From Mytilus edulis (Eukaryota), in contig NC_092350.1 in assembly GCF_963676685.1 (NCBI RefSeq), forward strand, positions 57,040,001 through 57,104,000: a stretch of 64,000 bases of DNA, given 5' to 3'. A model generated the notes under the pieces. It did not search any database, was not told the DNA's origin, and saw only the letters and a program-made list of their open reading frames with translations. A program made the position numbers and the translations under genes. This document shows, in pieces, positions 9,501 to 58,365 of this stretch (positions within the stretch are counted from its first letter, which is position 1; each line of letters opens with the position of its first letter).

Positions 9501-9919
9501 TTTAAAGATCTATGTTTTTCTATATCTATTTGAGATATTTATTTTGTAAGTGAAACATATGCATGCAACCCACATCTTTTTTCTCAAAATTATAAACAGT
9601 CTTGATATTTGAAATTAAAAAAATCAAAATCCTAATTTTTTCTTTTTTTCTTTTTTGGAACGTTGAATATATCCATGGATGCGGAAATTCCCTTAACATT
9701 TTGTAGGGATGATTATGCCATTACAAATAAACATATTCAATTCATAAGGACAACGTTATTTTCGTCAAAGGAATTGAATAAATTTTATAAATCATGCATA
9801 TGCATCAACTACGTATACATGCGAATTAAAACATCAATTTGTTAACACATCTTATAGGTTTATTTACCTCCAACAAACATCAACAAAAGAGAAACAATTA
9901 AAAAAAAGGAAACCTTCAT
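6570..9919 (-). CDS. Secreted cysteine-rich peptide precursor, CRP-I-like (C-C-CC-C-C), single module, 63 aa
   Basis: Exons 9919-9868, 8967-8919 and 6660-6570, all GT-AG, phases 1 and 2. Translation: MKVSFFLIVSLLLMFVGVNMANEKMLKDNGLRQKLVKR|SPKCGRRLCPCCLGYTCVSGRCHAH*. Signal peptide + pro region + KR site + 6-Cys array, as in Mytilus CRP-I peptides. Confidence 0.88.
6905..8355 (+). repeat. Dispersed repeat copy split by a ~945-bp insertion (6971-7915)
   Basis: 6905-6970 joined to 7916-8355 reproduces the uninterrupted copy at 40128-40638 (ggaagatgtggtatga-tgccaatgagaca...attataggtcaatgta...caaggccaaaag). Confidence 0.7.
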
Positions 9920-13455: not shown

Positions 13456-15240
13456 TTACTAAAAGAAATTATGAATGATTCAATATTTAGTTTGAGAAAT
13501 TTAAAATGTCATTGAATGGTTATGTATCAATATGTGTTTTACAACTTGTTAATTGTTTTTGTATGATTTTTTTATTACCTTTCTTCGTGATAATAAAGCA
13601 GGTAATTGTTGCTGTTGATGCCCTTTTTGCATTGTTTAATATATTTTAGACCTGAAGAAGGCATGGTATGAAAATAAGCTTCAGATTTTAATGATTTGCT
13701 TTCTTTTGACTGTAAGTTGTTCAAGCAATAGTGTGCCTAAATACTTGCAAAAAGTAACTTTGGAAAATATAAAAAAAAAATTGTTTAATTTCCAAGGGAA
13801 TATATAAGTAAATTATTAAATACAATATTTTTTGTATAATGCTAGTTAAAAAATTTCAAACTATTCAAAACTGTTAGCAATTTTAATTTATGAAATAGTT
13901 TGTTTCAATAGCAACCATTTTAAAATTATATCATTAACAAGAATGAATCAAATATGTATTGCTGTTTATCTCTCTCGATTAGAGAATATCTCAATATGTC
14001 ACGTACAATTTTGTAAGAAAACATTACACATTTATTAAGTTGAAAGAAAACTGTATGGTTTTTTTTTCTATTTTCTATTCATTTTTCTTTTTGACATAAT
14101 CTATGTAATTGTGCATTTCTGACTTGAATGTAAATATGTTATTTTGAAGATGTGGTACAAAATTGAAACTGTCTAATCCTTATATGCTGCAGTTTTTCAC
14201 AAGTATACAAATTGCGGTATTGAATTAAACATTTTGAGATTGAATTGGATTGTTAAAACGAGCAGAAGCGCTGATTAACATGGTACTTTTAATTTGTTTA
14301 AATAATACGATTTAACAATCAAGCAATAACAAATATCAAAATCCACCTAATATCATTTAAGTACAATTTAATTATTTATAGAAAAGCAATAACTTTTTTT
14401 CGTTTTTGGGGGTCTGTATCGTTCTTTTTTATTCAGTTTTGTTTTATACTTTCGTTCTACCTCTCATTAAAAGTAGTGACAAAATAAAAAAGGATAATGA
14501 TGTGTACCTTCCACTACATCAACGGTGTGTTACATATTACAGAAAAGTAATTTATTGTCTACATTAAATAAAGTACACAAATAAGTGATGAGATACAACA
14601 ACATATCTGTCTTCTTGATTTTTCATTCAAAATAATCGTTCTTTTACATTCAACTATAAACACACGTAATTATGGTAATGAATTAATGACTTGTACATCA
14701 CACTAATGACGATGCAACACCGATAATAGTTGCATATGGTTAAAAAGATTTATGTATCCGATTGTAAAAGTATAGCATACACAAGTGCAGATTAGTCATC
14801 TTGAAAAGTTAGTCAAATTAATTGGATTATCAATTATCATAGTTTCCCGATTATCGTATTGCCTCAACATTGTAACAACAGATGACAAGGAGATGTAGAC
14901 ATGATAGATAGGGTTGTCATTCATTAATCTAACATATATGACATTAACGTTGCATTATTTTACTATAATTGTACACAATGAAGCTGACGTTGCCCTTTGA
15001 TGACTCTTACAGAATTAAGATTGTGTTGGTACAAATGGCGGAATAACCTGAAAAAAATAAATATTTGTATTTTCCCGCGGTTCGTATAGTGAAGCGGGAA
15101 ACTATTGTATTGTCGTTACGTTTTCATAAATATTCATAAGGCATGACAAAATTGACCAATCAGAAGTCGAATGTTGTCTTACGATATAGTTGTGTTTTTC
15201 AAGCGCTTCACTTTCTAGCCAGTTCAACATAGTCAGCTGC

Positions 15241-15930
15241 ATGGACGCTGATATTCAACACACTATACGTGCTGAAGTGCATAATGCGGTACAAAACACC
15301 CAAGAACAGTTATTGGACAATATGACAACTTTACTAGAGTCTCGTTTAGACGGTTTCCAAAGAAGAATCCAGGAAAACCAGAAATCCTTGTCTGACACAC
15401 AGATAGCCAAGATAGATGAAAGTATGCCCGACACATATAAGTTCCGCAAAAGAGGTAATGAAGAGCAGTACAAACATAACCACAAAGTATTCGTGAAGAT
15501 GAGGGAGGCCACAACCGAGATGGAAGCAGACAAATATTAACAACGCGAAACGGAAGATAACTGAAGGTATGGACATTATGAAGAACAGACAAAAGTTAAT
15601 CAAATTAGCTGATTCGTCAGACGCAGGGTGGCGGGTAGTAGCTGAGTATATTGCTAATCCTTTGGCTGAGAATTCCGAGAACGAAAGGAAAATGTACAAG
15701 GCACAGTCACGGGCAGATACCAAGATGAAAAAAGAAAAACTAAAAAAAACGTACAGACCAAAGGACAACACCATACAACAAAACAACGACATCAAATTCT
15801 ACGGGAAGTCAGTCGATACCTGTTAATGTCAGCAGTGGATTTGGAAGACCTGGGAGATGCTTTTATTGTCATTAGAGTGGGCATTGGATAAGACAGTGTC
15901 CAAAGTCACAACAGAACAAAAGAATAAGAT
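15241..15930 (+). pseudogene. DIRS gag-like ORF, frameshifted, with disrupted CCHC knuckle
   Basis: Motifs YKFRKRGNEEQYKHN and RQKLIKLADSSDAGWRVVAEY..PLAENSENERKM; CFYCH*SGHWIRQC at ~15858-15900. Confidence 0.8.
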
Positions 15931-16049
15931 AAGTATAAATAGTACTTACAATTTTAGTCGCATAGAATCGAGCGCACCTCTGTTGTGTAAACAAATATCA
16001 GCTGCTTTTAAATCAATGAAAAGTACACACACTAATGTATGTCAAGGTA

Positions 16050-17970
16050 ACGGTACAGGTGTAGGGTATTTAAAAGAAAAGGTAGATTCTTGGAAAGAGA
16101 TGGGTGCTACAAATTTTGTTGTTGATATAATAGAAAACGGGTATAAAATACCATTTAGCACAGTACCTCTAGAAACAGAATTAGAAAACAATAAAACTGC
16201 ACGCGACAACTCTTATTTTGTCGCCGATGAGATAGAAAAACTTTTAGAAAAAGGTTGTATACGTCGAGTGAAAAGTAAACCTCACGTTGTCAATCCATTA
16301 ACCGTAGCAAATAATAAAGGCTCAAATTTAAGATTGGTTTTAGATGCGAGGCATTTAAACCCACATATTGTAAAATTCAAACACAAGTATGAAGACGCAA
16401 CAACTGCCAGACAGTTGTTTGAGAAGGGAAACTATGTATTTTCCTACGATTTAAAAAGTGAATATCACCACATAAAATATGTCAAGCAGATACAACATTT
16501 TTAGGTTTCAAATGGGCAAATGAATACTATGAGTATAATGTTTTGCCATTTGGGTTATCCTCTAGTGGGTATATATTTAGCAAAGTAATGAGAGAGATCG
16601 TTAAACATTGGCGAGGTAGAGGCATGAAAATTGTTATGTATTTGGACGATGGCCTAGGTGGAGGTAACGGTTTTGAGTGTGCTTTAGAATCAAGTAAAAC
16701 AATCAAATCCGATTTAGAAAGGTTTGGATTTGTTTTGGCACATGAGAAATGCAACTGGTTGCCAGTTCAAACGTTAGAATGGTAAGGTTTTTTATGGGAC
16801 ATGTCGGAAGGGGTTTTAAGACTCACAGAGAAACGCATAACTAAATTGAAAGGCACTTTGGTTATTTTCATTTACCAGTTTAGAAGTGGTATTAGGCTAT
16901 TCAGAGTAAAATGTGTGGCCAGTATTGTAGGCCAAATCATATCTATGCAGGCAGTATTAGGTGATCAGGCACGATTAAGAACTAGATATTTATATGAATC
17001 TATATTGTATAGAGCAAGTTGGAATGCTAAAGTACTAGTTAGTACAGAAGCACTTAAAGAGTGCACATTTTGGTTACAAAATATAAGTAGTTTAAACGAG
17101 ACAGGATCTCAATTGTGTCAGTTGACATTTAATGAAGATCAAGATTATCACTTGTTCTGTGATGCATCTGGCAAGGGTTTTGGTGGTCATTTGACCGCAG
17201 GTTCAAAGGACGAATCATTGGAAATGTTTGGAAGTTGGTCAGTAAATGAACAAAACAAAAGCTCAACTTGGCGAGAGCTAGTAGCAGTAAAGAGAGTAGT
17301 ACACAATTTTACAAATGTAATGAAGGATTAGATTATCCGGGTATACACAGATAACAAAAACGTAACGCACATACTCAGGGTCGGAGGCCGAAAAGCATCA
17401 CTACATGAAAACGTGATGCAAATATATGAAATTTGTAAGAATCAATCAATTAAATAAAGTTCTATTTGGATTCCACGCGAACAAAACACACACGCTGACA
17501 TTTTAAGTAGACGGTCAGATTGTGATGATTGGGAGGTACAGGCCGAAATATTTACATATCTTGATCACTTGTGGGGTTCTCATAACGCCGATAGGTTTGC
17601 ACATGACAACAACACCAAGTGTAAGCATTTCAATTCAAAATATTAGTGTCCAGGAACATCAGGTATTGACGCTTTCACAGTTGACTGGAAAGGTAAAAAT
17701 AATTGGCTTGTACCACCACCAAATTTGATTCCTAAAGTGTTAAACAAATTAAAACAAGAAAAGTGCAATGCTACTTTAGTTATACCAGAGTGAACCTCTG
17801 CACCATACTGGCCTATGCTAATAGATGAGAAAGGGAACATGAAAGCTTTCATAGTTGCACACATTTTCTTTCAGGGAGAAAACTTGACCAAGGAAAGCCG
17901 CGGTCAGAGCGGTATATTTGGACAACAATTTTTGAAATTTAGATTGATTGGTTTAAGAATACAATTTTAG
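16050..17970 (+). pseudogene. DIRS pol: reverse transcriptase, RNase H and adenine-methyltransferase-like domain, disrupted
   Basis: Motifs LRLVLDARHLN, DLKSEYHH, LPFGLSSS, MYLDDG, FCDASGKGFGG, SSTWREL, YTDNKNV, WIPREQN, DRFA, NNWLVPPP and PEW.SAPYWP; several stops and frameshifts. Confidence 0.88.
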
Positions 17971-18091
17971 ATCAAAATATTTATGATAATTCTCTTTTTT
18001 AATAGGGACCAAATTAGATCGTACAGTAAAGGAGGCCATTAGAAATAGCGGCATCGAAGGTGACAGTTATCTTTATGAGCTTTATCCAAAA

Positions 18092-19016
18092 ATGTGCGAA
18101 CTTTTAATAAACAGCAGAAGTGACAACACAGTCAAATCTTATTTTAATGCTTTTAAAAGATGGGAACGTTTCATATCCCTCCATGGACATGCTGCTTTAC
18201 CAGCTCAACCAGTGCACGTCGCACTATACCTTACAGACTTAGTTAACAACTGTTCCACTTATCATGCGGTATATCATGCAATATATGGTATAAAATGGGC
18301 ACACGAAATCAACAGTTTAAAAGATCCTACCACGAACACTTATGTTAATTCAATACTAGAAGCGTCTAAAAGAGTTGCGCCAAAGAAGACTAACAAGAAA
18401 GATCCAATTACTACAGACGTTTTGATAGAACTTTGTGATAATTTCAAAAATTGGTCTTACCTACTTGTGTTAAGAGATTTGACTATGATGCTACTTTGTT
18501 TTGCAGGTTTCCTTAGATACGATGAACTTAGTTCTTTGCGTTTCCTTGACATTGATATACAAGATTCTTTTCTGATTTTACATATAACTAAGAGCAAAAC
18601 TGACCAATACAGGCAAAGCAATGAGGTTATAATAGCAAACGGTTCTACAATCGCATGTCCCTTTAATATGTTAGTTAAATACACACGTTTGGCTGGTTTT
18701 AGTAGTCACGAGAATACATTTTTATTTCGTCCTATCTACAGGTCAGGAGAGTTATGTAAATTGATAATAAGGATAAGAAACTCAGTTACACGGCGGCTAG
18801 GGAGTGTCTTCTTAAGAGAATTAGAATTATTCGTCATGTCTGTAACATAGGTCTTCACTCGTTCAGATCAGGTGGTGCCACAGTGGCTGCTAACGCAGAC
18901 GTTAGCGACAGGTGTTTGAAAAAACACGGCAGATGGAAATCTGACTCGAGTAAAGATGGTTATATCGTAGACTCCATAGAAAAACGTTTGAAAATTTCTC
19001 AAGTTTTAGGTTTATA
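18092..19016 (+). pseudogene. DIRS tyrosine recombinase, frameshifted
   Basis: FAGFLRYDEL and KSKTDQYR, then in a shifted frame GLHSFRSGGAT...KKHGRWKSDSSKDGY (R-K-H-R-H-Y catalytic set). Confidence 0.9.
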
Positions 19017-19865
19017 GTTTCATATTTGGGATCGTGTACCCTTTCTTTGTATATTTCTATCACGTTCGACGGGCTGTCGGCAAATTCATATTTGTGTTTT
19101 AGTTATATTTAGTTATGGAGTAGAGGCAATACTTGTATTTTCTCGCGGTTCGTATAGTAAAGCGGGGAAATATTGTATTGTTGTTACGTTTTCATAAATA
19201 TTCATAAGGCATGACAAAATTGACCATTCAGAAGACGAATTTTGTGTTACGATATATTGGTGTTTTTCAAGCGCTTCACTTTCTAGCCGTCGTTCAACAT
19301 AGTAAGCTCCGATTGCAATTAAAGTTGTTTTTTCTGATTTACTATTCGTATATGTATTTGCTAATTAAAAGTGTGGTCCGCCACTTTTATCCGGAGATAG
19401 GCTCGAGCATTGGCACGGATACAGGTTTCCATTCATATTCATATATCATGTGAACGATTGTTGGTTTTTCCTGGACGGCCTTGACTATCTATGAAGGGTA
19501 AACATTCAGAAATTTAAGCGAATACACTGTGGGCACATTGATATTTGAAATATTGTATATATATATATGTTTTAATAATTGTTAAAATGTGTACTGTTGG
19601 AAATTATTTGAGATACAAATTAAATACGGCGTCTATCACGTTCGACGGGCTGTCGGCAAATTTATATTTGTGTTTTAGTTATATTTAGTCATGGAGTAGA
19701 GGTAATACTATCTTTTTCATGTTTTTGTATGCATTATTTTTCACGCTATCGCTGTTTTCTTCTTTTTTTTCAGTACAAAAAAATGTTAGCATCTTTTAAT
19801 TTGTATTTTCCTAAACGTCTAAACGTCAGAAGAATAATAAATAATTATGGTATTATAATATAAAC

Positions 19866-22235
19866 GGTATTAGGCTATTCAGAGTAAAATTTGTGGCCAG
19901 TATTGTAGGCCAAATCATATCTATGCAGGCAGTATTAGGTGATCAGGCACGATTAACAACTAGATATTTATATGAATCTATATTGTATAGAGCAAGTTGG
20001 AATGCTAAAGTACTAGTTAGTACAGAAGCACTTAAAGAGTGCACATTTTGGCTACAAAATATAAGAAGTTTAAACGAGACAGGATCTCAATTGTGTCAGT
20101 TGACATTTAATGAAGATCAAGATTATCACTTGTTCTGTGATGCATCTGGCAAGGGTTTTGGTGGTCATTTGACCTCAGGTTCAAAGGACGAATCATTGGA
20201 AATGTTTGGAAGTTGGTCAGTAAATGAACAAAACAAAACCTCAACTTGGCGAGAGCTAGTAGCAGTAAAGAGAGTATTACACAATTTTACAACTGTAATG
20301 AAGGATAAGATTATCCAGGTTTACACAGATAACAAAAACGTAACGCACATACTCAGAGTCGGAGGCCGAAAAGCATCACTACATGAAAACGTGATGCAAA
20401 TACATGAAATTTGTAAGAATCAATCAATTAAATTGAGTTCTGTTTGGATTCCACGTGAACAAAACCCACACGCTGACATGTTAAGTAGACGGTCAGATTG
20501 TGATGATTGGGAGGTACAGGACGAAATATTTACATATCTAGATCACTTGTTGGGTCCTCATAACGCCGATAGGTTTGCACATGACTACAACACCAAGTGT
20601 AAGCATTTCAATTAAAAATATTGGTGTCCAGGAACATCAGGTATTGACACTTTCACAGTTGACTGGAAACGTAAAAATAATTGGCTTGTACCACCACCAA
20701 ATTTGATTCCTAAAGTGTTAAACAAATTAAAACAAGAAAAGTGCAATGCTACTTTAGTTATACCAGAGTGGACCTCTGCACCATACTGGCCTATGCTAAT
20801 AGATGAGAAAGGGAACATGAAAGCTTTCATAGTTGCACACATTTTCGTTCAGGGAGAAAACTTGACCAAGGAAGGCCGCGGTCAAAGTGGTATATTTGGA
20901 CAACAATTTTTGAAATTTAGATTGATTTGTTTAAGAATACAATTTTAGATCAAAATATTTATGATAATTCTCTTTTTTAATAGGGACCAAATTAGATCGT
21001 ACAGTAAAGGAGGCCATTAGAAATAGCGGCATCGATGGTGACAGTTATCTTTATGGGCTTTATCCAAAAATGTGCGAACTTTTAATAAACAGCAGAAGTG
21101 ACAACACAGTCAAATCTTATTTTAATGCTTTTGAAAGATGGGAACGTTTCATATCCCTCCATGGACATGTTGCTTTACCAGCTCAACCAGTGCACGTCGC
21201 ACTATACCTTACAGACTTAGTTAACAACGGTTCCACTTATCATGCGGTATATCATGCAATATATGGTATAAAATTGGCACACGAAATCAACAGTTTAAAA
21301 GATCCTACCACGAACACTTATGTTAATTCAATACTAGAAGCGTCTAAAAGAGTTGCGCCAAAGAAGACTAACAAGAAAGATCCAATTACTACAAACGTTT
21401 TGATAGAATTTTGTGAAAATTTCAAAAATTGTTCTTACCTACTTGTGTTAAGATATTTGACTATGATGCTACCTTGTTTTGCAGGTTTCCTTAGATACGA
21501 TGAACTTAGTTCTTTGCGTTTCCTTGACATTGATATACAAGATTCTTTTCTGATTTTACATATAACTAAGAGCAAAACTGACCAATACAGGCAAAGCAAT
21601 GAGGTTATAATAGCAAACGGTTCTACAATCGCATGTCCCTATAATATGTTAGTAAAATACACACGTTTGGCTGGTTTTAGTAGTCATGAGAATACATTTT
21701 TATTTCGTCCTATCTACAGGTCAGGAGAGTTGTGTAAATTGATAATAAGGATAAGAAACTCAGTTACACGGCGGCTAGGGAGTGTCTTCTTAAGAGAATT
21801 AGAATTATTCGTCCTGGTTGTAACATAGGTCTTCACTCGTTCAGATCAGGTGGTGCCACAATGGCTGCTAACGCAGACGTTATTGACAGGTGTTTGAAAA
21901 AACACGGCAGATGGAAATCTGACTCGAGTAAAGATGGTTATATCGTAGACTCCATAGAAAAACGTTTGAAAATTTCTCAAGTTTTAGGTTTATAGTTTCA
22001 TATTTGGGATCGTGTACCCTTTCTTTGTATATTTCTATCAAGTTCGACGGGCTGTCGGCAAATTTATATTTGTGTTTTAGTTATATTTAGTCATGGAGTA
22101 GAGGTAATACTATCTTTTTCATGTTTTTGTATGCATTATTTTTCACGCTATCGCTGTTTTCTTTTTTTTTTCAACACAAAAAAAATGTTAGCATCTTTTA
22201 ATTTGTATTTTCCTAAACGTCTAAACGTCAGAAGA
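19866..22235 (+). mobile_element. Tandem partial duplicate of the DIRS 3' half (RNase H/MT/YR) plus downstream flank
   Basis: Starts at the sequence matching 16888 (ggtattaggctattcagag). ORFs 19893-20615, 20703-20948 and 21070-21828 are near-identical to copy 1. It has a single B repeat (22035-22111), followed by flank matching 19710-19835. Confidence 0.9.
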
Positions 22236-23430
22236 GAAAAATCTAAATAATAAATAATGTCCAATTTTTATTTAAATTCACGTTATTAACACATCAAACA
22301 CTAAAATGATGGTTACAATATCATCACAAACCTAACATACACGCCACAGGTAATCTCTTTTTCACTGCAAATTACATGTGTTAGTGGGATCCCAATTATC
22401 CCGTAACATGGGACAGTATTCTGACAGTGATGCATCAGTACACCAAAAGTAGGAACCAAACAAATCAGTTAACAAAAAGGTTCAACAATGGTTTTTACGG
22501 TTTACTTTAACAAATCGTGACTTGGATAGAGAGTTGTCTCATTGGCACACATACCACATCTTCTTATATCTATAAACTCATCAGATGGCTTCAAATAGAA
22601 ATACCTATAACTAAAAAACATAGAGTGGAATTGGCCAGGTATTTGTGGATCCCAAAAGCAAAAATACACTTAGCCCACCAATCGGTAAGGGAGTTTTTCG
22701 GTGTGTTGGAGAATTATTGAAGGCCTTTTGTTGGTGTTCTTTGAACTTGTTGATCACTCTCTGACGCACTCCCTGTTTTCATGCTATTTTTAATCAATAC
22801 AACCTTCAATCGGGAGTTCACCTTTGCATGCGATTGGTACAGGTGAAAAACTGCGATTCGTATCTTGATCAGACGCATTTTTTAAAGCACCGAAACATGT
22901 ATCGAAACCACTGTGAATAGAGTGCTCAATATTGAAATTATGGGTTTAATTCAAATATGTACCCGTTTGCCAAACTAATCAGATACATTTATACCAGTGA
23001 TGTGAACAACTCTGAACTCTTGATTACCCGCAAAAAGTAGTTATCATATCTATGCTCTTGTGTATTACAAAAAAATAAAGTAACAAAAATATCAAAATTT
23101 CAAAGACAATTTAAAACACAAACTTTCTATCCAAAGGGCAAAACGATGTGCCCAAGCACATCAAACGAGTGCATGGAAAACTAAAAACATACAAATGTCT
23201 TGGTAATGTAGAAAATGGTGGTTTAAATCGGGTTTATAGCTAAAAATGGCCTTGTATTAAAAAACTTTAGTTCGAAAGAAATGAAAATATTGGCATTCAC
23301 ATCACAAAAAATAAATTTCATTTTTTATTATTTGAAATCATGTTTAACAAATACTACTTTTTACGATTCAACATCTCTTGGATCTGTCTCATCAAGGTTG
23401 ATAGTACTTGTAAATGGTGGATAGACATAC

Positions 23431-24081
23431 TCATTTTCCGTATGATGCACGGATGCATTCTCCGTACTGGCAATCATAACCATTACAACAAGGATTATAG
23501 TCGCAAGATACTGTACTACAGCCTGATATACTTCTTTTTCCACGACTAAAACATAAAAAATGTAATAATGTATATTTGATGCATACCACATTGGCTTTCC
23601 TTAATCATTTTATTGGTGGGATTGTTGTTTATTCAGTGAAAACGAATAATATGTTGTACGATGAGATATTTCACAATTTATATGTAATGTTCTTAATTAC
23701 AAGTAGAAATTATTCATATAAAATTAACGATTTTTTAAAGCAGGTAAAAGCGTAATATATATATATACATATATACAACTCGTCTAAACATCAACCCAAC
23801 AATGTTAGATCTGTAAATTTGCTTTCGCAAATTTTTGGTTCTTCCCTCGCCGGGATTCGAACCCATGCTACTGTGATATCGTGACACCAAATCGCCTGCA
23901 CTGCAGCCGTCCCGCTAGACCACACGACCACCTGGGCTCTCAAAAAAGAGCTTTCGGTGGCCATATGTTACCTTTCCACGTCAGTTTTAATCTAGCGGCG
24001 TACTACAGTACATGATATATAAGGCATATATATATATATATCAGCGCCCTCGTGGGGAAAATCGTTGACTACTATACAGAC

Positions 24082-24122
<41 letters not shown>

Positions 24123-26895
24123 AAACCCCTGTGAATATAGCGCTCAATTGTGAAATTATGGGTTTAATTCAAAAATACCTAGCCGTTTACAAAACATCCT
24201 ATCAAGTGATGTGAACTTTTAATTAACTGCAAAAAGTAATTACCATATCTATGTTGTCGTATACACATGATATAATAAAAAAAGGAAAATCACAAAAAAA
24301 TCTAAATTCTAAAGAAAATTTAAAAATGGAAATTTCATATTCAATTTTAATAATGATGAGCTCAAACTAATCAAAGGAATGCATGAAAAACAAATATCAT
24401 GAACATGACTTAGTACATGCATTTATTAATGTAGAAAAATAGTGGTTTGAATCTGGCTTAAACATGCACCTTCATACTTTAGTTACAACAAGTTGAAAAC
24501 TATTGGCATTTACGATGAAAAAATAATTTCAATTCGTTTTTATTAGAAATCATGTTGAACAAATACTATTCAAATATTCAACATCTCCCAGATCAGTATC
24601 CTCAAGGTTGATAGTAAAAGTGCACTTGTAAATGGCTGATTTAAAAACTCACTTTCCGTATGATGCACGGATACATTCTCCGTACTGACAATCATAACCA
24701 TTACAGCAAGAATTATATTCGCAAGATACTGTACTACAGCCTGATATACTTCTTTTAACCATACTACAACATAAAGATTATAAACAAATACATTCTTTAA
24801 ACAACCTTCTTGAGGTTTTTTTATAATTGTTATTGTTGAGATCGCTTTTTATTGACCCATTTAGTGATCGTGGTTATTATGACGTACGATGATATATTTC
24901 ACTACTTCACCATCTCCAACTTTGTACTTTATTTGGACTGTAACATTTTGTTTTATTCGAGCGTCATTGATGAGTCTTTTGTAGACGAAATGCACGTCTG
25001 ACAGAAATATAAATTGTAATCCCGGTATCTATGATGACTTTATGTAATATTCTTAGTACCAAGAAGTAATTGCAATTTTTACTGTCTACCTTGTGCACCA
25101 ATACAATTGTAAGGGCGATATTATGTTAGATCAGTTCCCAAAGAAAGTGGTTTGGAACACTAATCTGAGAATCAGATAACTGATAATTTTAACCATTCAT
25201 ATCACATTTTCTTATATCTTTATACTTGTTTAGACTTTAAATTACGTAACACTTGTTTTACAAAACCTGGTTATTCAGTCGAATTAAGGTGGTACCTAAC
25301 ACTACAGGGAGATAACTCTGTAAAATCAGCTAAACGTTTTAATTACGTTGTGTTGATAAGGGAATATTAAGCTTCTCGATGATCAAAATTAGTGTTTGTC
25401 AAACTGCTATATAACCAGTGTAATTTTCCCGATAAAACGGTTGGTTCAAATTTTTAAAATTTTATATATTTTTGTCAAAGAGTCAAAGTAAATACTCTGT
25501 CAAAATTTTATGATAATTAAACGATCCAAATTAATTTTAGTGAAGGTGTTGGGTACCACCTTAAGTATTTTTTGTAGAGATATATTCATGTAAATTCACA
25601 TGTATGATGTGAAATGTCATCAAATTTGGTTTGTAGAATGATAATGACCGAACTCACCCGTAGTTATTGTCTCGAATACAGGTTTCATAAGAGCAAGTAT
25701 AACCATTACAGCACTGACGATAGACACAACTATCTCCATCATAACCACAGAGGTCAGGTGCTGCTCTTTTTACAAGACTAAATGAGACGTAATTAAATTT
25801 ATAGTAAATTAATTAATATAATACTATATTTGTCTTAATTGTTTTGATCAACAAATATTTGAGATTCGATGACCTTGTTGCAAAAGATATTTAAAAAACA
25901 TTACAAGTTTTATTTATAAAACCATTAATCCTGTTGACTGTTTTGTCATTCTAACATTCACAAATTGTCTAAACTTATATGCTGGGGTAGTATTCGTTTG
26001 AATGGAATCACAACATAATAAGAGGCAGTGTTGTATCAAATAATCTTGAAAGCTTATTGTGTTTTTTTGTAATATAACATGTTCACCCCTTATAAAAACA
26101 AAATGATAAATTATACTTTATAACAGTATATAAGACGTCAAAGACTTGAACAAATGGAAACTTGTATTCGATATTTCATATTTATAAATACAGTTATGAT
26201 TATCAAACCGAACAATCTAAACAATATTAAATAGTTATTTAAGACTCATAGTTAATAAACTTGAACTATTAAAAATAAAATGCAAATATACAACAATCAA
26301 CTTACTTTTTTATAAATCCATTGTATCCCAACGCTTCTCCATTAGACATACTAACTGTATGAAAAGAAAGTAAGCAATTCAACTGAGTATTTCAAAACCT
26401 AACTGATTGCATATGTTTGAAGAGCTGTATGATTAAAAAAATTACTAAAAAAATAATAAATCCATCTTAATAGGTATTTTTTTCTTGGGGTGAAAGTACA
26501 TTTTTTGTTTTATACATGTGATAAGAATTAACAAATATATTTTTAAAAATTAAATAGCAAAATCATGATATAAAAAAATTTAGTACCGACAAATTACAAC
26601 TGAGCTGATCATTTCCCAGTAACATCCGATTGACCATTTGCGCATGTTGCAATATGAATTAAGTGCTAAAAACCAAACAAAAACAATGTCATATTTTTTC
26701 ACCGACAGCGATGCTTAATTATTTAAGCAGCTAGTGATGAATGTGTATGTTTTTTGTAACTTAATGTGCAAATCATGACAAAAAATACAACACAAAATTA
26801 AGAGACAAAGTAAACGTAAATTGTGATCCTTATAAATTCTTACCTCCAACAAACACCAAAAACAGAGAACACACAACGCAAAGAGAAACCTGCAT
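23431..26895 (-). CDS. Multi-module CRP-I-like cysteine-rich peptide precursor (three C-C-CC-C-C modules, 148 aa; possible two-module 111-aa isoform)
   Basis: Exons 26895-26844, 26354-26306, 25777-25658, 24763-24653 and 23545-23431, all GT-AG and in frame. Translation: MQVSLCVVCSLFLVFVGVSMSNGEALGYNGFIKNLVKR|AAPDLCGYDGDSCVYRQCCNGYTCSYETCIRDNNYGMVKR|SISGCSTVSCEYNSCCNGYDCQYGECIRASYGNRGKR|SISGCSTVSCDYNPCCNGYDCQYGECIRASYGK*. Confidence 0.88.
23775..23940 (-). mobile_element. tRNA-derived SINE-like repeat embedded in (TA)n
   Basis: Minus strand shows box A-like TGGTCGTGTGG and box B GGTTCGAATCC, followed by a non-tRNA tail; three copies in the window. Confidence 0.75.
24086..24120. repeat. (TA)n microsatellite
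   Basis: Uninterrupted TA run of ~35 bp. Confidence 0.95.
25288..25560. mobile_element. MITE with TTAA TSD, Kolobok-like
   Basis: TTAA|GGTGGTACCTAACAC ... GTGTTGGGTACCACC|TTAA. Confidence 0.85.
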
Positions 26896-29309
26896 TTTGC
26901 CTTCAATTCTGTGCCAAAAAAAAATAGTTTGCTAGATACTACAATAATCTTCTATTGTTTGTATATTTTTCTTATGTAGTTATGTTATAGATAATGCATA
27001 TTTAAGGTTTTTCTTGTCGTAGAAAACATCGAGGGGTGTAAGGATTGATCAAATGAAAGACCGACCGTAGGGAGTTTAATAGCAGTACATTTTTTAAACA
27101 GATAATCGGGATAAAATTATATACCTTTCCCCATCCGACGCCATTGTGAGGTACGTAAATGTTATTCAGTAGAATATAAGAATATTTTATTAGTTGATCA
27201 TTTGAAAGAGGAGAAGCTATAAATAAATGTAAAAAAGTTAAGAACTGACATGCACGAAGGGGGCACGAAATCGTGATGCATGTACATGTTATACGAACAC
27301 GAATATCAATACATGATGGTTACAGTATGATATTATATTCAGAGTGTGTCGTCCTGAGCATGAATGACATATTTGCCACTGGACTTTAGGCAACATCGAT
27401 CATTCAACATATATAGTGTGAATCAATAAGATTTTCAAAATCTTACACACGAATATGTTAAATCTTGCTTTATTTAAAGTGTTTACATTAAAGTTCATCT
27501 AATATATATGAAAATGTCTCTGTATTGTAGCGATAAGTTAATAAAACTTCACATTATTTGTTTCTAAAATTAAAATGCGGGCAATGACGATTTGTTTACA
27601 CCTAACATAGATTGAACTTTAAAAAAAAATCCCAAATCGGCAACAAAAAAAATTTTGAAGTAAATTATAGTTTGCTTTTTTATCAAGGAAAATAATGACC
27701 TCACACGTCATTATTTTATGCCTTGGAGCAAATTTGATTAAAACATGCTATCGTCCGGGGTGATTCTTTAAAAGAATGACCTATCGTTCTGGTGAAAATA
27801 TCTCCATAAAGGTATATAAACTGATAGAAACACATCGATTTTATTTAATATATACCGATTGCATTAATATTATACTTTGATTAGTACGTTTAAAACTTAA
27901 TTAAACGCAACTGTTTAAGTGTTAGCTATTATTCGTGTGTTTCTCTGTCCTATATGTTTTCCCATTTATTTGTATTGTAGTCCAGTCATGTAATGTTATC
28001 ATGTTAATGTTATATTTAACACTGACATTAAAGCGGAAGGTTTGGCATGCCACAAAACCAGGTTCAACATTGTTCAACCCACTATTTTTTTCTAAAAATG
28101 TGCTGTACCAAGTCAGGAAAATGGCCAGTGTTATATTATAGTTCGTTTCTGTGTGTGCTACATTTTAATGTTGTTTTTCTATTGTGTCGTTTTTCTCCCC
28201 TTAAATTTGATGCGTTTCCCTCAGTTAAACACAGATTTGTTTTTTTTTCTCAATCGATTTATGAATTTTGAACAGCGGTATACCAATGTTGCCTTTATTA
28301 AACGGATTGTTAACGATATGCACACGCATTTGTATTTTGTGACTTTTGACACAGTATCATGACTGTTACCTGTTCTTTTTCTTTTACCGTTACGTCTAAA
28401 TATCCTTGCCTCAGATTCCGTAAGTCCATTATTATTTTTAATTCAAGCACATTAAAACAACTGCGTTCCCACGAGACTTTTTTTTTTAATTCGATCATCT
28501 AGTTTGGTTTCTTATCAAACAAAACCAATATTTGCAATGTATAATCCTATCACTAAAATGTCCTACTTAACTGAACCTTTGTCCTAAACATGTTAAACAT
28601 AAAAAAAAAAGGAACACGTCTATGAAAATATCATGAAATGCATGTTGATTTTTGAAAGTATATCACCATTTTTTTTATTTCATTGGCATATATTATAATG
28701 TTTAATAGCGATACCCCTGGTAGATAAGCTGCCAATGGTATTATGATCAAATAAACAGTAATGGGAATGATATATAATGATTGAAAGTAGTTTTGCTAAT
28801 AAAAATGAAATTAATTTAAAACATTTGAATTATTTTCTAAGACCATTTATGAATTATAACGTTTTAAAAACTATATCAAACTAAATTATTTGTAACAGAT
28901 GTCGCAAAATATGTACTACGCTACACAAATGTTCATCAAAGGTCTATATAAGAGATTTTTATAACATTTTACAATGACCTGTTAAAAAGTTAGTTAATAA
29001 ATATCTTTTGGAATCACAAACCATAAGTAAAACCTGAGAACATTAATACTACGATATTTACTTTACATTAATCATTATTATTCTATTTAGAAACATCTTT
29101 GTATTCATAGGCAGTTTTAATTGACCGAATAATTCAATAACAACAGATGCTTTACAAAGAGACACTGTCTGTAGCTTAAATCTTTAATGCGTTTTCTTTT
29201 TATCGTTCTTAAATTTAATAAATGTCCATTATACCAATGAGTTGTTTCACTGGAAATCATATTGTATTTTGTTTACTGTTTTAATTAATTAAGAATAACT
29301 TAAATATAC

Positions 29310-29380: not shown

Positions 29381-32099
29381 CAAGATTACAACGCAATTGA
29401 CATTTAACATATGGGCACATTAATTTATTCGTTTAGATGATCAGGCTTTGCGGTCAAACGACCTTCGTACGTTTTTTTTGTTGTTGACAAACTAGAAAAA
29501 TAAAAATAAAGAAGAATCCCCTATTTTTTTGGGTTAGTTGTCAAAATATTATTTGAATACATTTTTATGTTACATGTCAAAAAACCTGTCTTACTTCTTA
29601 TAACTAATAAAAAAAACACAGAAATAATAAAAAGTTTCATTATTTTTTTACTTTAAAAAAAAAAATGATTATTTACTGTTACACATTTGCTTAAAAAAAT
29701 CAATCTTTTATATGTTTTAGTTTAACTTCATCGATAAGTGTCAATCAAATAAAAAAATATCACGAAATGCACTGAAATGTGAGATTTCAAAATATTAGTA
29801 GTATACATACCTTTTGAATTTTAAAAAGTTGCAAGATATATCTTTTTTTTAGAAAGAAATTCATTATTTGTTTTCTTTATATAAAACATGTTTAAATACT
29901 GATACACGTCGGCCAGTCTTGGTGCAACAGTTCTTCAATCTGAATAAATATATTGTCAGTGAAAAGCTCAGCAGTTAGATGATATCATATATCTCCAATG
30001 TATCTTATTCGGTGTTAAATCGGTTTAGTTCTTCATTAACACATCTTTGTCACCCACCCCCCTTTTCGAAAAAAAATCAACATAAAGCTCATAATTTAGT
30101 GTGGAAAGAATGGTAGCAAAATTTTGTAATTCGAATATTTAAGCTTTGAACAGGTATCAAGTTATAAGGACTATTGAACATTTTTAGATATCAAGTACAT
30201 GGCTGGGATATTTCAATAGTTCGGATTTGCGTCTATGGCAGAATTGTTTTAATATATTTTTTTTAAATATCCTTCTTTGTGAAATGAACAATACAATTGT
30301 ACAATAAACAGCTTTCTAACAATAAAAAAACCAATACAAAGATCTTTTGAGGCAAATACAAAATGAAGAGGAACCTGCTTTTTATAACCAAATCAAAAAG
30401 AACAACTTCCTACTATGGCCGTAAAATGAAACTGGAAACGTCTTTGTCAAAAACAAAGGTAGACAACCTTACAAGTGTTTGCGATATCTTTTTAGACGTT
30501 TCATTTCTTGTCACAGTAGACAGTTTGACTTGGAATACATCTTTATCCATATAAACCAAACTGCTCCTCCGTCTTTGTCTCATTGTGTCACTTTAAACAG
30601 TAGTATTAAATCGCGGCCAATGGGTATACTGGAAACATTCTGCGATTTGCTGATCCAAATTCTGACGCATAATCGTTGGTTGGGCAGCAATGGTCAATTC
30701 CTGGCCACCAAGTTGGGCAGACATATTTGATTATTATTCAAATCATGTCATACATAAAAGCTCATAATTTAGTGTGGAAAGAATGGTAGCAAAATTTTGT
30801 AATTCGAATATTTAAGCTTTGAACAGGTATCAAGTTATAAGGACTATTGAAAATTTGTAGATATCAAGTATAAAGGCTGGGATATTTCAATAGTTCGGAT
30901 TTGCGTCTATGGCAGAATTTTTTTTATATATTTTTTTAAAATATCCTTCTTTGTGAAATGAACAATACAATTGTACAATAAACAGCTTTCTAACAATAAA
31001 AAACTCTAACTTGTAAAACATATTTGTATACACCGCAAGTATAGGGACACATTATACAATAGAATAAAGCATGCACAGAGTGGGAAGTATGTTTTTCTGG
31101 ATTTCGATTTTATAGTCCACGGCCATGGGTTGCAAAATTATTCAGTAGAAAGTAAGTCATATTTTGGATTCAACAAACGAGACCGATGATCGTATTTAAC
31201 TTCTTTAACTCTTGGAAATTATACAGTCCCAAGGGCTAACTTTACATCGTAATGCTTAGTAATTCTAGGAAGAATGTACGAGTTCATGGAAAAGTACGGA
31301 TACAAAATGCTATAATATAGTGCAATATTTAGAGTAAAATAATTCTTAATAGGGGTTCGCCCACGTCACTTAAAACAACTTGAATTAAGTATCTTTATTT
31401 TTTCATGGGTTGACCAACTTTTTGTTCCTACAAATATAATCAATTTAAAAAAAAGGAATAAAATACAACTGTCATATTCATCAGCTAGAACAGGCATTTA
31501 TAAGGAAGATGTAAGGGATTTTTTTTTATAACGACCTTAACCTTTATTTGTATGACATTTGTTCATAAAAATATTTATAAAACTATGTCCGCAATCCAAA
31601 TAGACACAATTGTCGTACGTGACCATAATCTCGATCCAGAAATCAAAGTTGTGTAGTTTGTACTTTGTAAATACAACTGTTACACAAAACACGCCTCCTT
31701 TTGGAGATATATGCTAATTATAATTTTTATAGTTTTCTTAACCTTCCGGTTCCAAGATATGATATCTATCTGTTCTCCTTGAACAAAATATTGGAATTCC
31801 ACCAGTGTGAACACACATGGATAGTGACCACATCTACATTTTATAAAGACCCAAAGTGAAAGCAATGAAAGAACAGAATTTTAGTTTAAGTTTTAACTCA
31901 AATAAATTAGAGAGATATACATTTTGAAAATATATTCCGCAATGTCCTATGTTTTAACTTTTTTTTAAATATAACTGCATATCAATTGTTCCGTCTATGG
32001 TATACACTTGAACGAAACTAAATAGTAAAGGTGGCACTGTTTGAGTCGAAAGAGGAGTTCCTTCTAGAGTTGTTCAAGTATGTGTAACATCTTTGATGC

Positions 32100-33560
32100 C
32101 ACTGTTTAAAAACACGCCATCATTTGCAAAAATCAGGTATTCGATGGATAAGGCGAAAAAATTTGATTATTCCCGGCGAAACATCAATTGTAACTGCAGA
32201 TGAGCAACTTTTTGGTAATGGCTAAGCAGACTCAGTGGGAATGGCCTGCTTTGTGTGAAGAAAATAAGTTTATCTTAATGTTTGGTGGATTGCACATTGT
32301 AATGACTTGTTATAAAATTCTGGGTGATATATTGCGTGATAGTGGATAGACAATGTGCTCTTACTGAAGCCGATATTGCAACATCTAGAACGGCAGACTC
32401 TTTTTATGTATGGTCAAATGTACAAAGGAATAGAAACGCGCATCAGATAACTGCATGTGTTTTGCTTGAATTGTTATTGTCGGCTTATGAAAGCTAAACG
32501 CAAAAAAATATAATTATGTCATGACTCTGTGACGTTCAATGATTTGATAGACTGGTGTAAGGAAAAAGAGTCACCTCGACTACAGTTTGATTCCTGGCGT
32601 TCAATTATCAATAAAGTTAGTATGCTCATTTCATGAGTCAGACTTTGTACTTTACAAACAGTCCATATAACTCATGATACGGTATTTTTTTTAGTTCGTG
32701 ATCGTGTAATTTATGCTTGATCGTTGCCGACCTATCTCAAGAGATATGGCATCCCTTCCAAACATTACCCAAAGGTTGCAATGGAATTTGAAAATGATAA
32801 TTTCACTGTACAAACGACCAGCAAATTTGTTTTCTTATAGCACAATTGATCAGGCACAAAAACAGAATAATGCAATTGTGAAGGGCGATGTTGGTGTCAT
32901 AGGTTTGACCAAAGATCCCTTTTAGACATTTGGATGGTAGCTGGACCAGGAGTCAGTAGACTAGAAGATGAATTTGAAAGATCTAGTGGTTTCTACAACA
33001 GATGAACGACATAATGAAGACTACGAAAATACGAACAGATATCTTTACAAATGCTTTGTAAAGTGGTGAACGAGTTTGGAAATCCATTTCTAGAAGAGTC
33101 GTCAGATTTGTTAAACAAGTTCCCCTATTAATGAAATTTTGGATTTGGGAGCCGGTAAGATATGTATATAAAATCCAAGATATTGGTCCGAACAATACAA
33201 AGATCTTTTGAAGCAAATACAAAATGAAGAAGAACCTGCTTTTTATAACCAAATCAAAAAGAACAACTTCCTACTATGACCGTAAAATGAAACTGGAAAC
33301 GTCTTTGTCAAAAACACAGGTAGACAACCTTACAAGTGTTTGCGATATTTTTTTAGACGTTTCATTTCTTGTCACAGTAGACAGTTTGACTTGGAATACA
33401 TCTTTATCCATATAAACCAAACTGCTCCTCCGTCTTTGTCTCATGGTGTCACTTTAAACAGTGGTATTCAATCGCTGCCAATGGGTATACTGGAAACATT
33501 CTGCGATTTGCTGATCCAAATTCTGACGCATAATCGTTGGTTGGGCAGCAATGGTCAATT
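32100..33560 (+). pseudogene. Academ-type transposase remnant (unit 1)
   Basis: Broken frames give PGETSIVTADEQLF, AKQTQWEWP..ENKFILMFGGLHIVM..KILGDILRDSG, TEADIATS.TADSF, RNAHQITACVL and IDQAQKQNNAIVKGDVGVIGLT, which I recognise as Academ(X) transposase motifs. Confidence 0.7.
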
Positions 33561-34974
33561 TCTGGCCACCAAGTTGGGCAGACATATTTGATTATTATTC
33601 AAATCATGTCATACATAAAAGCTCATAATTTAGTGTGGAAAGAATGGTAGCAAAATTTTGTAATTCGAATATTCAAGCTTTGAACAGGTATCAAGTTATA
33701 AGGACTATTGAAAATTTGTAGATATCAAGTATAAAGGCTGGGATATTTCAATAGTTCGGATTTGCGTCTATGGCAGAATTTTTTTTATATATTTTTTTAA
33801 AATATCCTTCTTTGTGAAATGAACAATACAATTGTACAATAAACAGCTTTCTAACAATAAAAAACTCTAACTTGTAAAACATATTTGTATACACCGCAAG
33901 TATAGGGACACATTATACAATAGAATAAAGCACGCACAGAGTGGGAAGTATGTTTTTCTGGATTTCGATTTTATAGTCCACGGCCATGGTTTGCAAAATT
34001 ATTCAGTAGAAAGTAAGTCATATTTTGGATTTAACAAACGAGACCGATGATCGTATTTAACTTCTTTAACTCTTGGAAATTATACAGTCCCAAGGGCTAA
34101 CTTTACATCGTAATGCTTAGTAATTCTAGGAAGAATGTACGAGTTCATGGAAAAGTACGGGTACAAAATGCTATAATATAGTGCAATATTTAGAGTAAAA
34201 TAATCATTAATAGGAGTTCGCCCACGTCACTTAAAACAACTTGAATTAAGTATCTTTATTTTTTCATGGGTTGTATCCCATCGAAATAACCAACTTTTTG
34301 TTCCTACAAATATAATCAATTTAAAAAGAAAGGAATAAAATACAACTGTCATATTCATCAGCTAGAACAGGCATTTATAAGGAAGATGTAAGGGATTTTT
34401 TTTATAACGACCTTAACCTTTATTTGTATGACATTTGTTCATAAAAATATTTATAAAACTATGTCCGCAATCCAAATAGACACAATTGTCGTACGTGACC
34501 ATAATCTCGATCCAGAAATCAAAGTTGTGTAATTTGTACTTTGTAAATACAACTGTTACACAAAACACGCCTCCTTTTGGAGATATATGCTAATTATGAT
34601 TTTTATAGTTTTCTTAACCTTCCGGTTCCAAGATATGATATCTATCTTTTCTCCTTGAACAAAATATTGGAATTCCACCAGTGTGAACACACATGGATAG
34701 TGACCACATCTACATTTTATAAAGACCCAAAGTGAAAGCAATGAAAGAACAGAATTTTAGTTTAAGTTTTAACTCAAATAAATTAGAGAGATATACATTT
34801 TGAAAATATATTCCGCAATGTCCTATGTTTTAACTTTTTTTTAAATATAACTGCATATCAATTGTTCCGTCTATGGTATACTATTGGACGAAACTAAATA
34901 GTAAAGGTGACACTGTTTGAGTCGAAAGAGGAGTTCCTTCTAGAGTTGTTCAAGTAAGTGTAACATCTTTGATG

Positions 34975-36435
34975 CCACTGTTTAAAAACACGCCATCATT
35001 TGCAAAAATCAGGTATTCGATGGATAAGGCGAAAAAATTTGATTATTCCCGGCGAAACATCAATTGTAACTGCAGATGAGCAACTTTTTGGTAATGGCTA
35101 AGCAGACTCAGTGGGAATGGCCTGCTTTGTGTGAAGAAAATAAGTTTATCTTAATGTTTGGTGGATTGCACATTGTAATGACTTGTTATAAAATTCTGGG
35201 TGATATATTGCGTGATAGTGGATAGACAATGTGCTCTCACTGAAGCCGATATTGCAATATCTAGAACGGCAGACTCTTTTTATGTATGGTCAAATGTACA
35301 AAGGACTAGAAACGCGCATCAGATAACTGCATGTGTTTTGCTTGAATTGTTATTGTCGGCTAATGAAAGCTAAACGCAAAAAATATAATTATGTCATGAC
35401 TCTGTGACGTTCAATGATTTGATAGACTGGTGTAAGGAAAAAGAGTCACCTCGACTACAGTTTGATTCCTGGCGTTCAATTATCAATAAAGTTAGTATGC
35501 TCATTTCATGAGTCCGACTTTGTACTTTACAAACAGTCCATATAACTCATGATACGGTATTTTTTTTAGTTCGTGATCGTGTAATTTATGCTTGATCGTT
35601 GCCGACCTATCTCAAGAGATATGGCATCCCTTCCAAACATTACCCAAAGGTGGCAATGGAATTTGAAAATGATAATTTCACTGTACAAACGACCAGCAAA
35701 TTTGTTTTCTTATAGCACAATTGATCAGGCACAAAAACAGAATAATGCAATTGTGAAGGGCGATGTTGGTGTCATAGGTTTGACCAAAGATCCCTTTTAG
35801 ACATTTGGATGGTAGCTGGACCAGGAGTCAGTAGACTAGAAGATGAATTTGAAAGATCTAGTGGTTTCTACAACAGATGAACGACATAATGAAGACTACG
35901 AAAATACGAACAGATATCTTTACAAATGCTTTGTAAAGTGGTGAACGAGTTTGGAAATCCATTTCTAGAAGAGTCGTCAGATTTGTTAAACAAGTTCCCC
36001 TATTAATGAAATTTTGGATTTGGGAGCCGGTAAGATATGTATATAAAATCCAAGATATTGGTCCGAACAATACAAAGATCTTTTGAAGCAAATACAAAAT
36101 GAAGAAGAACCTGCTTTTTATAACCAAATCAAAAAGAACAACTTCCTACTATGACCGTAAAATGAAACTGGAAACGTCTTTGTCAAAAACAAAGGTAGAC
36201 AACCTTACAAGTGTTTGCGATATTTTTTTAGACGTTTCATTTCTTGTCACAGTAGACAGTTTGACTTGGAATACATCTTTATCCATATAAACCAAACTGC
36301 TCCTCCGTCTTTGTCTCATGGTGTCACTTTAAACAGTGGTATTAAATCGCTGCCAATGGGTATACTGGAAACATTCTGCGATTTGCTGATCCAAATTCTG
36401 ACGCATAATCGTTGGTTGGGCAGCAATGGTCAATT
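34975..36435 (+). pseudogene. Academ-type transposase remnant (unit 2)
   Basis: Near-identical to unit 1, with the same disabling lesions. Confidence 0.7.
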
Positions 36436-36785
36436 CCTGGCCACCAAGTTGGGCAGACATATTTGATTATTATTCAAATCATGTCATATATAAAAGCTCA
36501 TAATTTAGTGTGGAAAGAATGGTAGCAAAATTTTGTAATTCGAATATCTAAGCTTTGAACAGGTATCAAGTTATAAGGACTATTGATTTTTTTTAGATAT
36601 CAAGTATAAAGGCTGGGATATTTCAATAGTTCCTGTTCTGATATGTCGCGCATCAAGGATCTAACGAAATTCGATAGACAGGTCAAATCTGGTGACCTAA
36701 GTTCACAAACTTTATATTTGAATAACATTAATTTTTCATCCAATCAGAATCCATCTCTTAAACGAGTTTCGGAACATCATTCAAA

Positions 36786-52434: not shown

Positions 52435-52647
52435 NNNNNNNNNNNNNNNNNNNNNNNNNNNNNNNNNNNNNNNNNNNNNNNNNNNNNNNNNNNNNNNNNN
52501 NNNNNNNNNNNNNNNNNNNNNNNNNNNNNNNNNNNNNNNNNNNNNNNNNNNNNNNNNNNNNNNNNNNNNNNNNNNNNNNNNNNNNNNNNNNNNNNNNNNN
52601 NNNNNNNNNNNNNNNNNNNNNNNNNNNNNNNNNNNNNNNNNNNNNNN
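52435..52647. other. Assembly gap (N run)
   Basis: 213 consecutive N. Confidence 0.99.
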
Positions 52648-57670: not shown

Positions 57671-58365
57671 TATCTGATTGCATATATACCAGATTACATG
57701 CAGGGTATCCTAAATTTCAATATTTTGATAGATTTTTTTTCGATTAATTTGATTATCTATGATATAATGATGAATGATTTTTAAATCTCTAGCGGCACAT
57801 TGAAAGCAGATGCACGACAAGGACAAGATAAGAGTACATGCATATTAGCCGTATTAAATACTAAACCTACTCATTTAAACTGAATGTAAACATGATATGT
57901 TGCAATGCAATGTCAAGATATCTGGACACATCATTCCGACTCTGAGCCGATAATTGTTTCTATCTACTTCTTTATTTGGCGTTCTTAAACAAATAAGCAA
58001 AAAAAAACGGATTTTAAAGTCTTTGGTTTTAACAAACGACCGCTCGCATTCGATGCGAACACGCTACCGTTGCAGCCCTTATTATGTTTAAGATTTCTCA
58101 AATACGCATATTGTGTTTTTCCTTACAGAGTCCAGTGAAACTCAATGTGCGTTAAACAAGAAAAGTAACAAGTTATATTTCTTTATTAATTGACTTATTG
58201 TTTTTAACTTGTCATACATATCAAGTAAAAAAAGTTCTTCAGCTTGTCGCCTGCAATTTGATTAAATGGCTCTGTAACAGTTGGCCCTTAAGTTGATCAT
58301 TGTGAAGTTGACCCTGGTGAATCTAGTTCTGGTCAAACAGGCACTGGTACAGTTGGCCCTACAGT

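What the first reader, a model, noticed from the sequence alone, without database searches (positions are those of the whole stretch)
23431..26895. Hidden three-module knottin-like polyprotein releasing anionic, possibly amidated peptides
Seen: one exon per module, all phase 2, each opening with a KR site. Cys spacing is C-x6-C-x4-CC-x4-C-x4-C (module 1) and C-x4-C-x4-CC-x4-C-x4-C (modules 2 and 3). Modules are net acidic and Tyr-rich, and modules 2 and 3 end in GKR / GK*, the usual amidation signals. Established: C-C-CC-C-C is the inhibitor-cystine-knot framework, and Mytilus CRP-I is a hypervariable family of unknown function with multi-module members. The gene is invisible in the ORF track. 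Anionic charge argues against a classic cationic antimicrobial role (inference).
Basis: partly seen in the sequence, partly recalled or inferred. Interest (0 to 1): 0.7.

Follow-up and report, generated by a model that had tools for sequence, protein, structure and literature searches.

The report
Mussel knottin gene chains duplicated exons
A mussel gene catalogued as making one small acidic cysteine-rich peptide has two extra peptide exons behind it, the first of which is spliced on in a transcript, so it likely makes a chain of two or three peptides that are cut apart, an arrangement this family was reported not to use.

Summary
Five minus-strand coding exons join in frame to 148 aa with three KR-led C-C-CC-C-C modules. 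The gene is Mytilus CRP-I group Q: signal, pro-region and module 1 match the published single-module precursor sCRP-I Q1 at 70 of 74 residues, and its acidity, predicted knottin fold and possible amidation are in print (PMC10138031). It is not a standard multi-module CRP-I, whose modules share one exon, lie 2-4 residues apart and lack KR. The module 1-to-2 splice is shown by one transcript contig and by a 111-aa M. trossulus RefSeq model. The module 2-to-3 splice is not shown; it is inferred from a strong donor, conservation of module 3 and its new R-G-K-R start. Single-module paralogues end in TGA-G and two carry a latent GTGAG donor over the stop, which likely explains how added last exons became chained. 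Only this gene among 24 module exons in 464 kb is built so. Function is untested. New variant of a known family; interest 0.38.

The parts
26844..26895 (-). Signal-peptide exon (17 codons plus 1 nt, phase 1 donor); an AG acceptor 13 nt before the ATG points to an untranslated upstream exon that was not located
   Evidence: matches exon 2 of the CRP-I gene model in PMC4558851 section 17
26306..26354 (-). Pro-region exon, 49 nt, phase 1 to phase 2; only one acidic residue
   Evidence: agrees with Q1 and P0001
25658..25777 (-). Module 1 exon: KR site plus the Q1 mature peptide (C-6-C-4-CC-4-C-4-C); its donor GTGAGT overlaps an in-frame TGA at 25656-25654
   Evidence: spliced to module 2 in contig X4
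24653..24763 (-). Module 2 exon: KR site plus acidic module (C-4-C-4-CC-4-C-4-C); donor GTGAGT overlaps an in-frame TGA at 24651-24649
   Evidence: identical in protein to residues 75-111 of RefSeq P0001
24539..24544 (-). AATAAA 109 nt behind module 2, in register with the one behind module 3; candidate poly(A) signal for a two-module transcript
23431..23545 (-). Module 3 exon: begins R-G-K-R, ends Gly-Lys-TGA with no donor at the place where modules 1 and 2 have one; predicted last coding exon
   Evidence: splicing into it not shown
23324..23329 (-). AATAAA 102 nt behind the stop, candidate poly(A) signal
22897..24902 (-). Tandem duplication: 24115-24902 (module 2 with flanks) and 22897-23674 (module 3 with flanks), 71% identical over 826 columns
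25284..25564 (.). High-copy repeat inserted in the intron between modules 1 and 2 (further repeats near 24955-25016 and 23782-23940)
   Evidence: depth and loose ends

Best explanation
This is the Mytilus CRP-I group Q gene, whose module 1 exon is spliced to a second KR-led module exon and likely to a third, giving a secreted precursor predicted to be cut into up to three acidic knottin peptides. Shown: the exons and frame; identity with Q1; the module 1-2 splice; the module 2/3 tandem duplication; the TGA-G ending of single-module paralogues. Inferred origin: a CRP-I last exon starts in phase 2, carries its own KR site and ends Gly-(Lys)-TGA-G; where a G precedes the TGA this reads GTGAG, a phase-2 donor, so a second last exon placed downstream is joined in frame without further change. 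Inferred processing: signal removal, convertase cuts after the three KR sites, carboxypeptidase trimming and amidation of modules 2 and 3 but not of module 1, whose spliced tail has no terminal Gly. Inferred role (weakest step, about 0.4 alone): a co-released set of defence peptides that bind a protein target of a eukaryotic parasite or predator and do not lyse membranes.
For: Q1 identity 70 of 74 (compared by eye). Contig X4 (175 nt, depth 5) carries 58 nt of module 1 joined to the whole module 2 exon with 0 differences; its 30-letter loose end matches window 25659-25688 at 29 of 30, and it stops matching at 24653, the module 2 donor, with 5 letters left over. RefSeq XP_063399392.1 is the same two-module form, 7 differences in 111 aa, none in module 2. 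Module 3 is conserved: 5 changed codons of 34 from KR on (3 synonymous, 2 replacement) against 111 of 405 differing sites in the far 3' flank, Fisher p = 2e-7. Its exon start is R-G-K-R where the other module exons printed read L or M before V, E or I; this is a furin-type site and an amidation signal for the module before it (own knowledge of the motifs). No AATAAA in 700 nt behind module 1. 4 of 6 single-module paralogues with a visible stop end TGA-G, 2 of them GTGAG. 19 of 21 other module exons have their own signal exon; only Q has three behind one. Module 3 model pLDDT 78.9 with a C-terminal hairpin; 7 of 8 VIA rows are knottins, Z 2.0-2.7, rmsd 1.1-2.4 over 26-30 residues.
Against: No read or contig crosses the module 2-3 junction; the 5 leftover letters were not printed and could also be a read-through allele without the donor. 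The three raw RNA runs laid gave 0 reads on the module 2 exon. The RNA label of X4 is a guess, and it is one contig in 1 of 7 different runs laid. The only database protein ends after module 2. Module 2 keeps its own AATAAA. The donors are inherited from the stop context, so their presence is not independent evidence of use. Gene conversion could also keep modules 2 and 3 alike. No Foldseek match reached E 0.001. No cleavage, amidation or activity was tested; the one family member with a toxic effect (H1) is cationic and unlike Q.
Confidence: 0.62

Rival explanations
1. Alternative last exons. Module 1 is joined either to module 2 read through to its stop (111 aa) or straight to module 3 (111 aa), with some module 1 read-through (74 aa, Q1). 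No three-module chain is made, or only a minor one.
For: All these forms are open and end in an amidation signal; modules 2 and 3 each have AATAAA about 105 nt behind the stop; RefSeq ends at module 2; Q1 was catalogued as a complete single-module precursor.
Against: Contig X4 leaves the genome exactly at the module 2 donor (weak); AAA/GTGAGT is the same intronic hexamer as the used module 1 donor; module 1 has no near poly(A) signal; the Q1 model follows the family's four-exon template and its 2015 entry was incomplete.
Confidence: 0.22
2. Module 3 is a silent duplicate kept similar by gene conversion; the gene makes only the two-module precursor.
For: No spliced RNA for module 3 was seen; the one RNA-labelled contig on it (X2, 23437-23625) runs unspliced into the intron; synonymous differences are few as well (3).
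Against: Identity is highest in the mature coding part and falls on both sides (65% upstream, 80% then 73% downstream); acceptor, KR, six Cys, Gly-Lys-stop and AATAAA are all intact; the five changes at the exon start give R-G-K-R and not noise.
Confidence: 0.08
3. The chain is not cut and acts as a bivalent or trivalent knottin, like the spider double-knot peptide.
For: Top Foldseek rows for the two-module model are double-knot structures, at E 0.28-0.42 only; mCRP-I were modelled as uncut necklaces.
Against: Each 15-residue linker holds the same KR that the family uses for maturation, one in R-X-K-R form; linker pLDDT under 50.
Confidence: 0.08

Closest known systems
sCRP-I Q1 (formerly MgCRP-I 38), PMC10138031 Tables S1, S3, S4
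   Same: Same gene: 70 of 74 residues, 1 change in the mature peptide; acidic (pI under 4 in the paper); present in 13 of 23 genomes there.
   Different: Catalogued as one module ending at the TGA inside the module 1 donor; modules 2 and 3 are absent from the supplement text (0 hits for the module 2/3 start motif).
RefSeq XP_063399392.1, LOC134684029, M. trossulus, uncharacterized protein (P0001)
   Same: Same four coding exons and module 1-2 junction; 104 of 111 residues.
   Different: Ends after module 2; no family name; whether that genome has module 3 was not testable.
mCRP-I (multi-MgCRP-I), PMC4558851 and PMC10138031
   Same: Same signal/pro region and repeated C-C-CC-C-C modules; same gene cluster (14 multi-module exons in the survey).
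   Different: All modules in one exon, 2-4 residues apart, no KR between modules in Table S3 (read by eye), slightly cationic; the authors call exon duplication not plausible for them. Here one exon per module, 15-residue KR linkers, acidic.
Nasonin-6 of Nasonia (PMC2853521 section 22) and lepidopteran X-tox (as described in PMC4558851 section 17)
   Same: Repeated cysteine-rich defence modules, one exon each, made by exon duplication.
   Different: Defensin-like modules; nasonins lack processing signals; no stop-overlapping donor is described in the passages read.
Knottin (ICK) peptides such as purotoxin-1, conotoxin GS, asteropsin G
   Same: Cys framework and predicted fold.
   Different: No sequence family match (Pfam 0 of 3 queries); CRP-I is a separate family; a shared fold shows no function.

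Membership tests
Mytilus CRP-I | Conserved signal and pro region | tested here: met
   35 of 38 residues equal to Q1
Mytilus CRP-I | KR or RR before the mature peptide | tested here: met
   KR at 37-38
Mytilus CRP-I | C(X3-6)C(X1-7)CC(X3-4)C(X3-5)C array | tested here: met
   all three modules fit
Mytilus CRP-I | 17-codon signal exon, phase 1 then phase 2 introns | tested here: met
   the pro exon is 49 nt, shorter than the roughly 100 nt stated in 2015
Mytilus CRP-I | Lies in a CRP-I gene cluster | tested here: met
   24 module exons and 23 signal exons in G000:C7:56.84-57.30 Mb
sCRP-I subfamily | One module, in the final exon | tested here: not met
   module 1 is spliced to module 2; a read-through isoform is not excluded
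mCRP-I subfamily | All modules in a single exon | tested here: not met
   three exons, introns of 894 and 1107 nt
mCRP-I subfamily | Modules 2-4 residues apart without a dibasic site | tested here: not met
   15-residue linkers with KR
mCRP-I subfamily | Cationic mature region (pI 7.2-8.8) | tested here: not met
   pI 4.05-4.14
Knottin (ICK) fold | C-C-CC-C-C with C-terminal beta hairpin | tested here: inconclusive
   model has the hairpin; VIA Z only 2.0-2.7; Foldseek E above 1
Knottin (ICK) fold | Disulfides 1-4, 2-5, 3-6 | not testable with these tools
   predicted for the family in PMC10138031 section 23; synthetic peptides of 2015 folded otherwise
Convertase-processed, amidated polyprotein | Released single modules with C-terminal amide | not testable with these tools
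   signals present in sequence; needs peptidomics

The most novel reading that the evidence does not exclude
A third CRP-I architecture: last exons whose stop codon sits inside a latent phase-2 splice donor are pre-built for chaining, so adding one downstream turns a single-peptide gene into a convertase-cut polyprotein at once, and the choice between splicing and read-through lets one gene release one, two or three acidic knottins, with module number differing between species or haplotypes.
Probability: 0.5. Interest if true: 0.5.

Novelty: new variant of a known kind. Interest (0 to 1): 0.38.

Why it matters
It corrects the catalogue of a fast-evolving mussel defence family: Q1 is likely a truncated model, two acidic peptides are missing, and the rule that the mature region is always in one final exon has an exception. 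It also gives a simple, testable route from a single-peptide gene to a polyprotein through a splice donor lying over the stop codon. It does not solve what CRP-I peptides do, and exon duplication in defence peptides is known elsewhere, so the reach is modest.

Tried and rejected
First read-laying over 21900-28200 (runs X1, X2, X4, X9) was swamped by intronic repeats; no splice joint was among the 15 of 79 joints shown. Raw RNA runs X21, X23, X24 gave no exon reads and are no test. The signal-pro and pro-module 1 junctions were not tested with reads; they rest on Q1 and P0001. Three protein searches returned only P0001 (1 of 1 candidate each), weak evidence of absence given the word index. Pfam: 0 families for 3 queries. 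Foldseek: 0 matches at E 0.001 for either model. A fourth module was looked for and not found: the own-genome searches gave only modules 2 and 3 at high identity. Origin of module 2/3 from module 1 could not be shown: flanks give no signal (z near 0), while group S is slightly closer (coding z about 9, 3' flank z 3.5 for module 3 only, uncorrected over 10 comparisons per row), so capture of an S- or A-like last exon remains open. The group A-like orphan exon at C7:56840114 was checked as a second chained case and rejected: it lies in a duplicated block of several kb and its end is out of frame. Literature searches found no description of this arrangement; the library lacks most subscription papers, and the figures of PMC10138031 (Fig. 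6, S1-S8) could not be seen, so the extra exons may be drawn there as unassigned pseudogenes. Earlier scan notes: 8 shown of 35, none on CRP-I; 0 by sequence.

Full report
Observation. The minus strand holds five coding exons: signal 26895-26844, pro 26354-26306, and module exons 25777-25658, 24763-24653 and 23545-23431. Splice sites are canonical. None of the exons reaches 100 codons, so the ORF list misses them. One thing was overlooked: a phase-2 donor GTGAG always reads as an in-frame TGA, so modules 1 and 2 can also be last exons, giving 74- and 111-aa products.

Identity. The supplement of Gualandi et al. 2023 (PMC10138031; I read the abstract, sections 17 and 20-24, figure legends and all six parts of the supplement text, not the figures) lists sCRP-I Q1, a 74-aa precursor equal to signal, pro and module 1 at 70 of 74 residues. 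It is the former MgCRP-I 38, the only member of group Q, the most acidic group, marked in 13 of 23 genomes. The family's knottin fold and possible amidation are discussed there. The window lies in a CRP-I cluster: 24 module exons and 23 signal exons were found in G000:C7:56.84-57.30 Mb.

What is different. Gerdol et al. 2015 (PMC4558851; abstract, sections 16-17 and passages read) and the 2023 paper state that all modules of multi-module CRP-I lie in the final exon, 2-4 residues apart, and that exon duplication is not a plausible cause. The mCRP-I rows of Table S3 agree by eye, and modules 2/3 are not in the supplement text. In my survey 19 of the 21 other module exons have their own signal exon 0.9-4 kb upstream; the 2 without are a degenerate group A-like copy and one near the survey's edge. 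Only Q has three module exons, about 1.0 and 1.2 kb apart, behind one signal exon.

Splicing evidence. RefSeq holds a 111-aa M. trossulus model with the module 1-2 junction, 7 differences from the window and none in module 2. One contig of run X4 (175 nt, depth 5, RNA label a guess) joins 58 nt of module 1 to the whole module 2 exon at the predicted sites (loose end compared, 29 of 30). It stops matching at the module 2 donor with 5 unprinted letters left, which fits a splice but also a read-through allele. Of 7 different runs laid, this was the only informative piece; three raw RNA runs gave no exon reads. The module 2-3 splice is thus inferred. In favour: modules 2 and 3 form a tandem duplication whose flanks are 65-80% identical while the coding part from KR on differs in 5 of 34 codons, 2 of them replacements (Fisher p = 2e-7 with 5 of 99 sites entered against 111 of 405); module 3 alone lacks the donor and has AATAAA 102 nt behind its stop; and its first codons read R-G-K-R, a furin-type site that also supplies a Gly-Lys-Arg amidation signal to the module in front (motif meanings from own knowledge). 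Against: module 2 keeps its own AATAAA, RefSeq ends there, and gene conversion could mimic constraint. I put the three-module transcript at about 0.65-0.7.

How it arose (inferred). Of 6 single-module paralogues with a visible stop, 4 end in TGA-G, and groups A and S read AAG TGA G, a GTGAG donor with nothing to splice to. A CRP-I last exon begins in phase 2 and carries its own KR. A second such exon placed downstream is therefore joined in frame, with its cleavage site, through the donor that overlaps the old stop. Whether module 2 is a copy of module 1 or a captured S- or A-like exon is open; module 3 is a later copy of the module 2 unit or the reverse.

How it works (inferred). The precursor is secreted and cut after each KR. 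Module 1 would keep a short unamidated tail; module 2 would end two residues past its Tyr-Gly in an amidated Arg; module 3 would end in amidated Tyr. The single-sequence model of module 3 (pLDDT 78.9) has the C-terminal hairpin, and 7 of 8 VIA rows are knottins at low Z; Foldseek gave nothing significant and Pfam nothing. The pro region has one acidic residue where most cationic paralogues in Table S3 have two to six (by eye), in line with the charge-balance idea of 2015. The family showed no antibacterial or protease-inhibiting activity, and cationic H1 was toxic to moth larvae and a cell line. For these acidic, Tyr-rich peptides the most likely role is binding a protein target in defence against eukaryotes; this is the weakest step and untested.

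Precedent. One exon per module is known for nasonin-6, without processing signals (PMC2853521 section 22 and passages), and X-tox (only as cited). Five searches (listings only for the other papers) found no account of this locus as a polyprotein; the library is incomplete and Fig. 6 of the 2023 paper was not visible.

Verdict. Real, a member of CRP-I, not of either subfamily as defined: a new variant of a known kind. Best explanation 0.62; interest 0.38.

Noticed in passing
window 6573-9919, minus strand: A second CRP-I gene: signal exon at 9919 and a module exon (KR at 6653) whose mature peptide equals sCRP-I B2 of Table S3; pro exon not located.
   Followed up: partly
window 58230-59516, minus strand: A CRP-I-type signal exon at 59516 followed by a Pro/Thr-rich repeated exon without Cys and with in-frame stops; recalls the cysteine-less lambda group but is longer; likely a pseudogene.
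   Followed up: partly
L001:4976-5051 (G000:C7 near 56858500): The group A gene has its stop region repeated twice more in the 3' flank, each copy with a GTGA donor-like site.
   Followed up: no
L044 (G000:C7:56840114): Degenerate group A-like last exon 18.5 kb behind the A gene, in a block about 80% identical to it, with no signal exon detected.
   Followed up: yes
G000:C7:57140796-57169948: Four tandem omicron-type mCRP-I genes; two have the same stop in the signal exon.
   Followed up: no
window 15190-21828: Two copies of reverse-transcriptase/RNase H-like and tyrosine-recombinase ORF fragments, DIRS-like by my reading of the translations; not searched.
   Followed up: no
window 49394-50526 and 54940-55756: Two arrays of a 105-bp tandem repeat in opposite orientation around the N stretch at 52435-52647.
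   Followed up: no
window 30425-36466: Three near-identical 101-codon frames about 2.87 kb apart, pointing to a local triplication.
   Followed up: no
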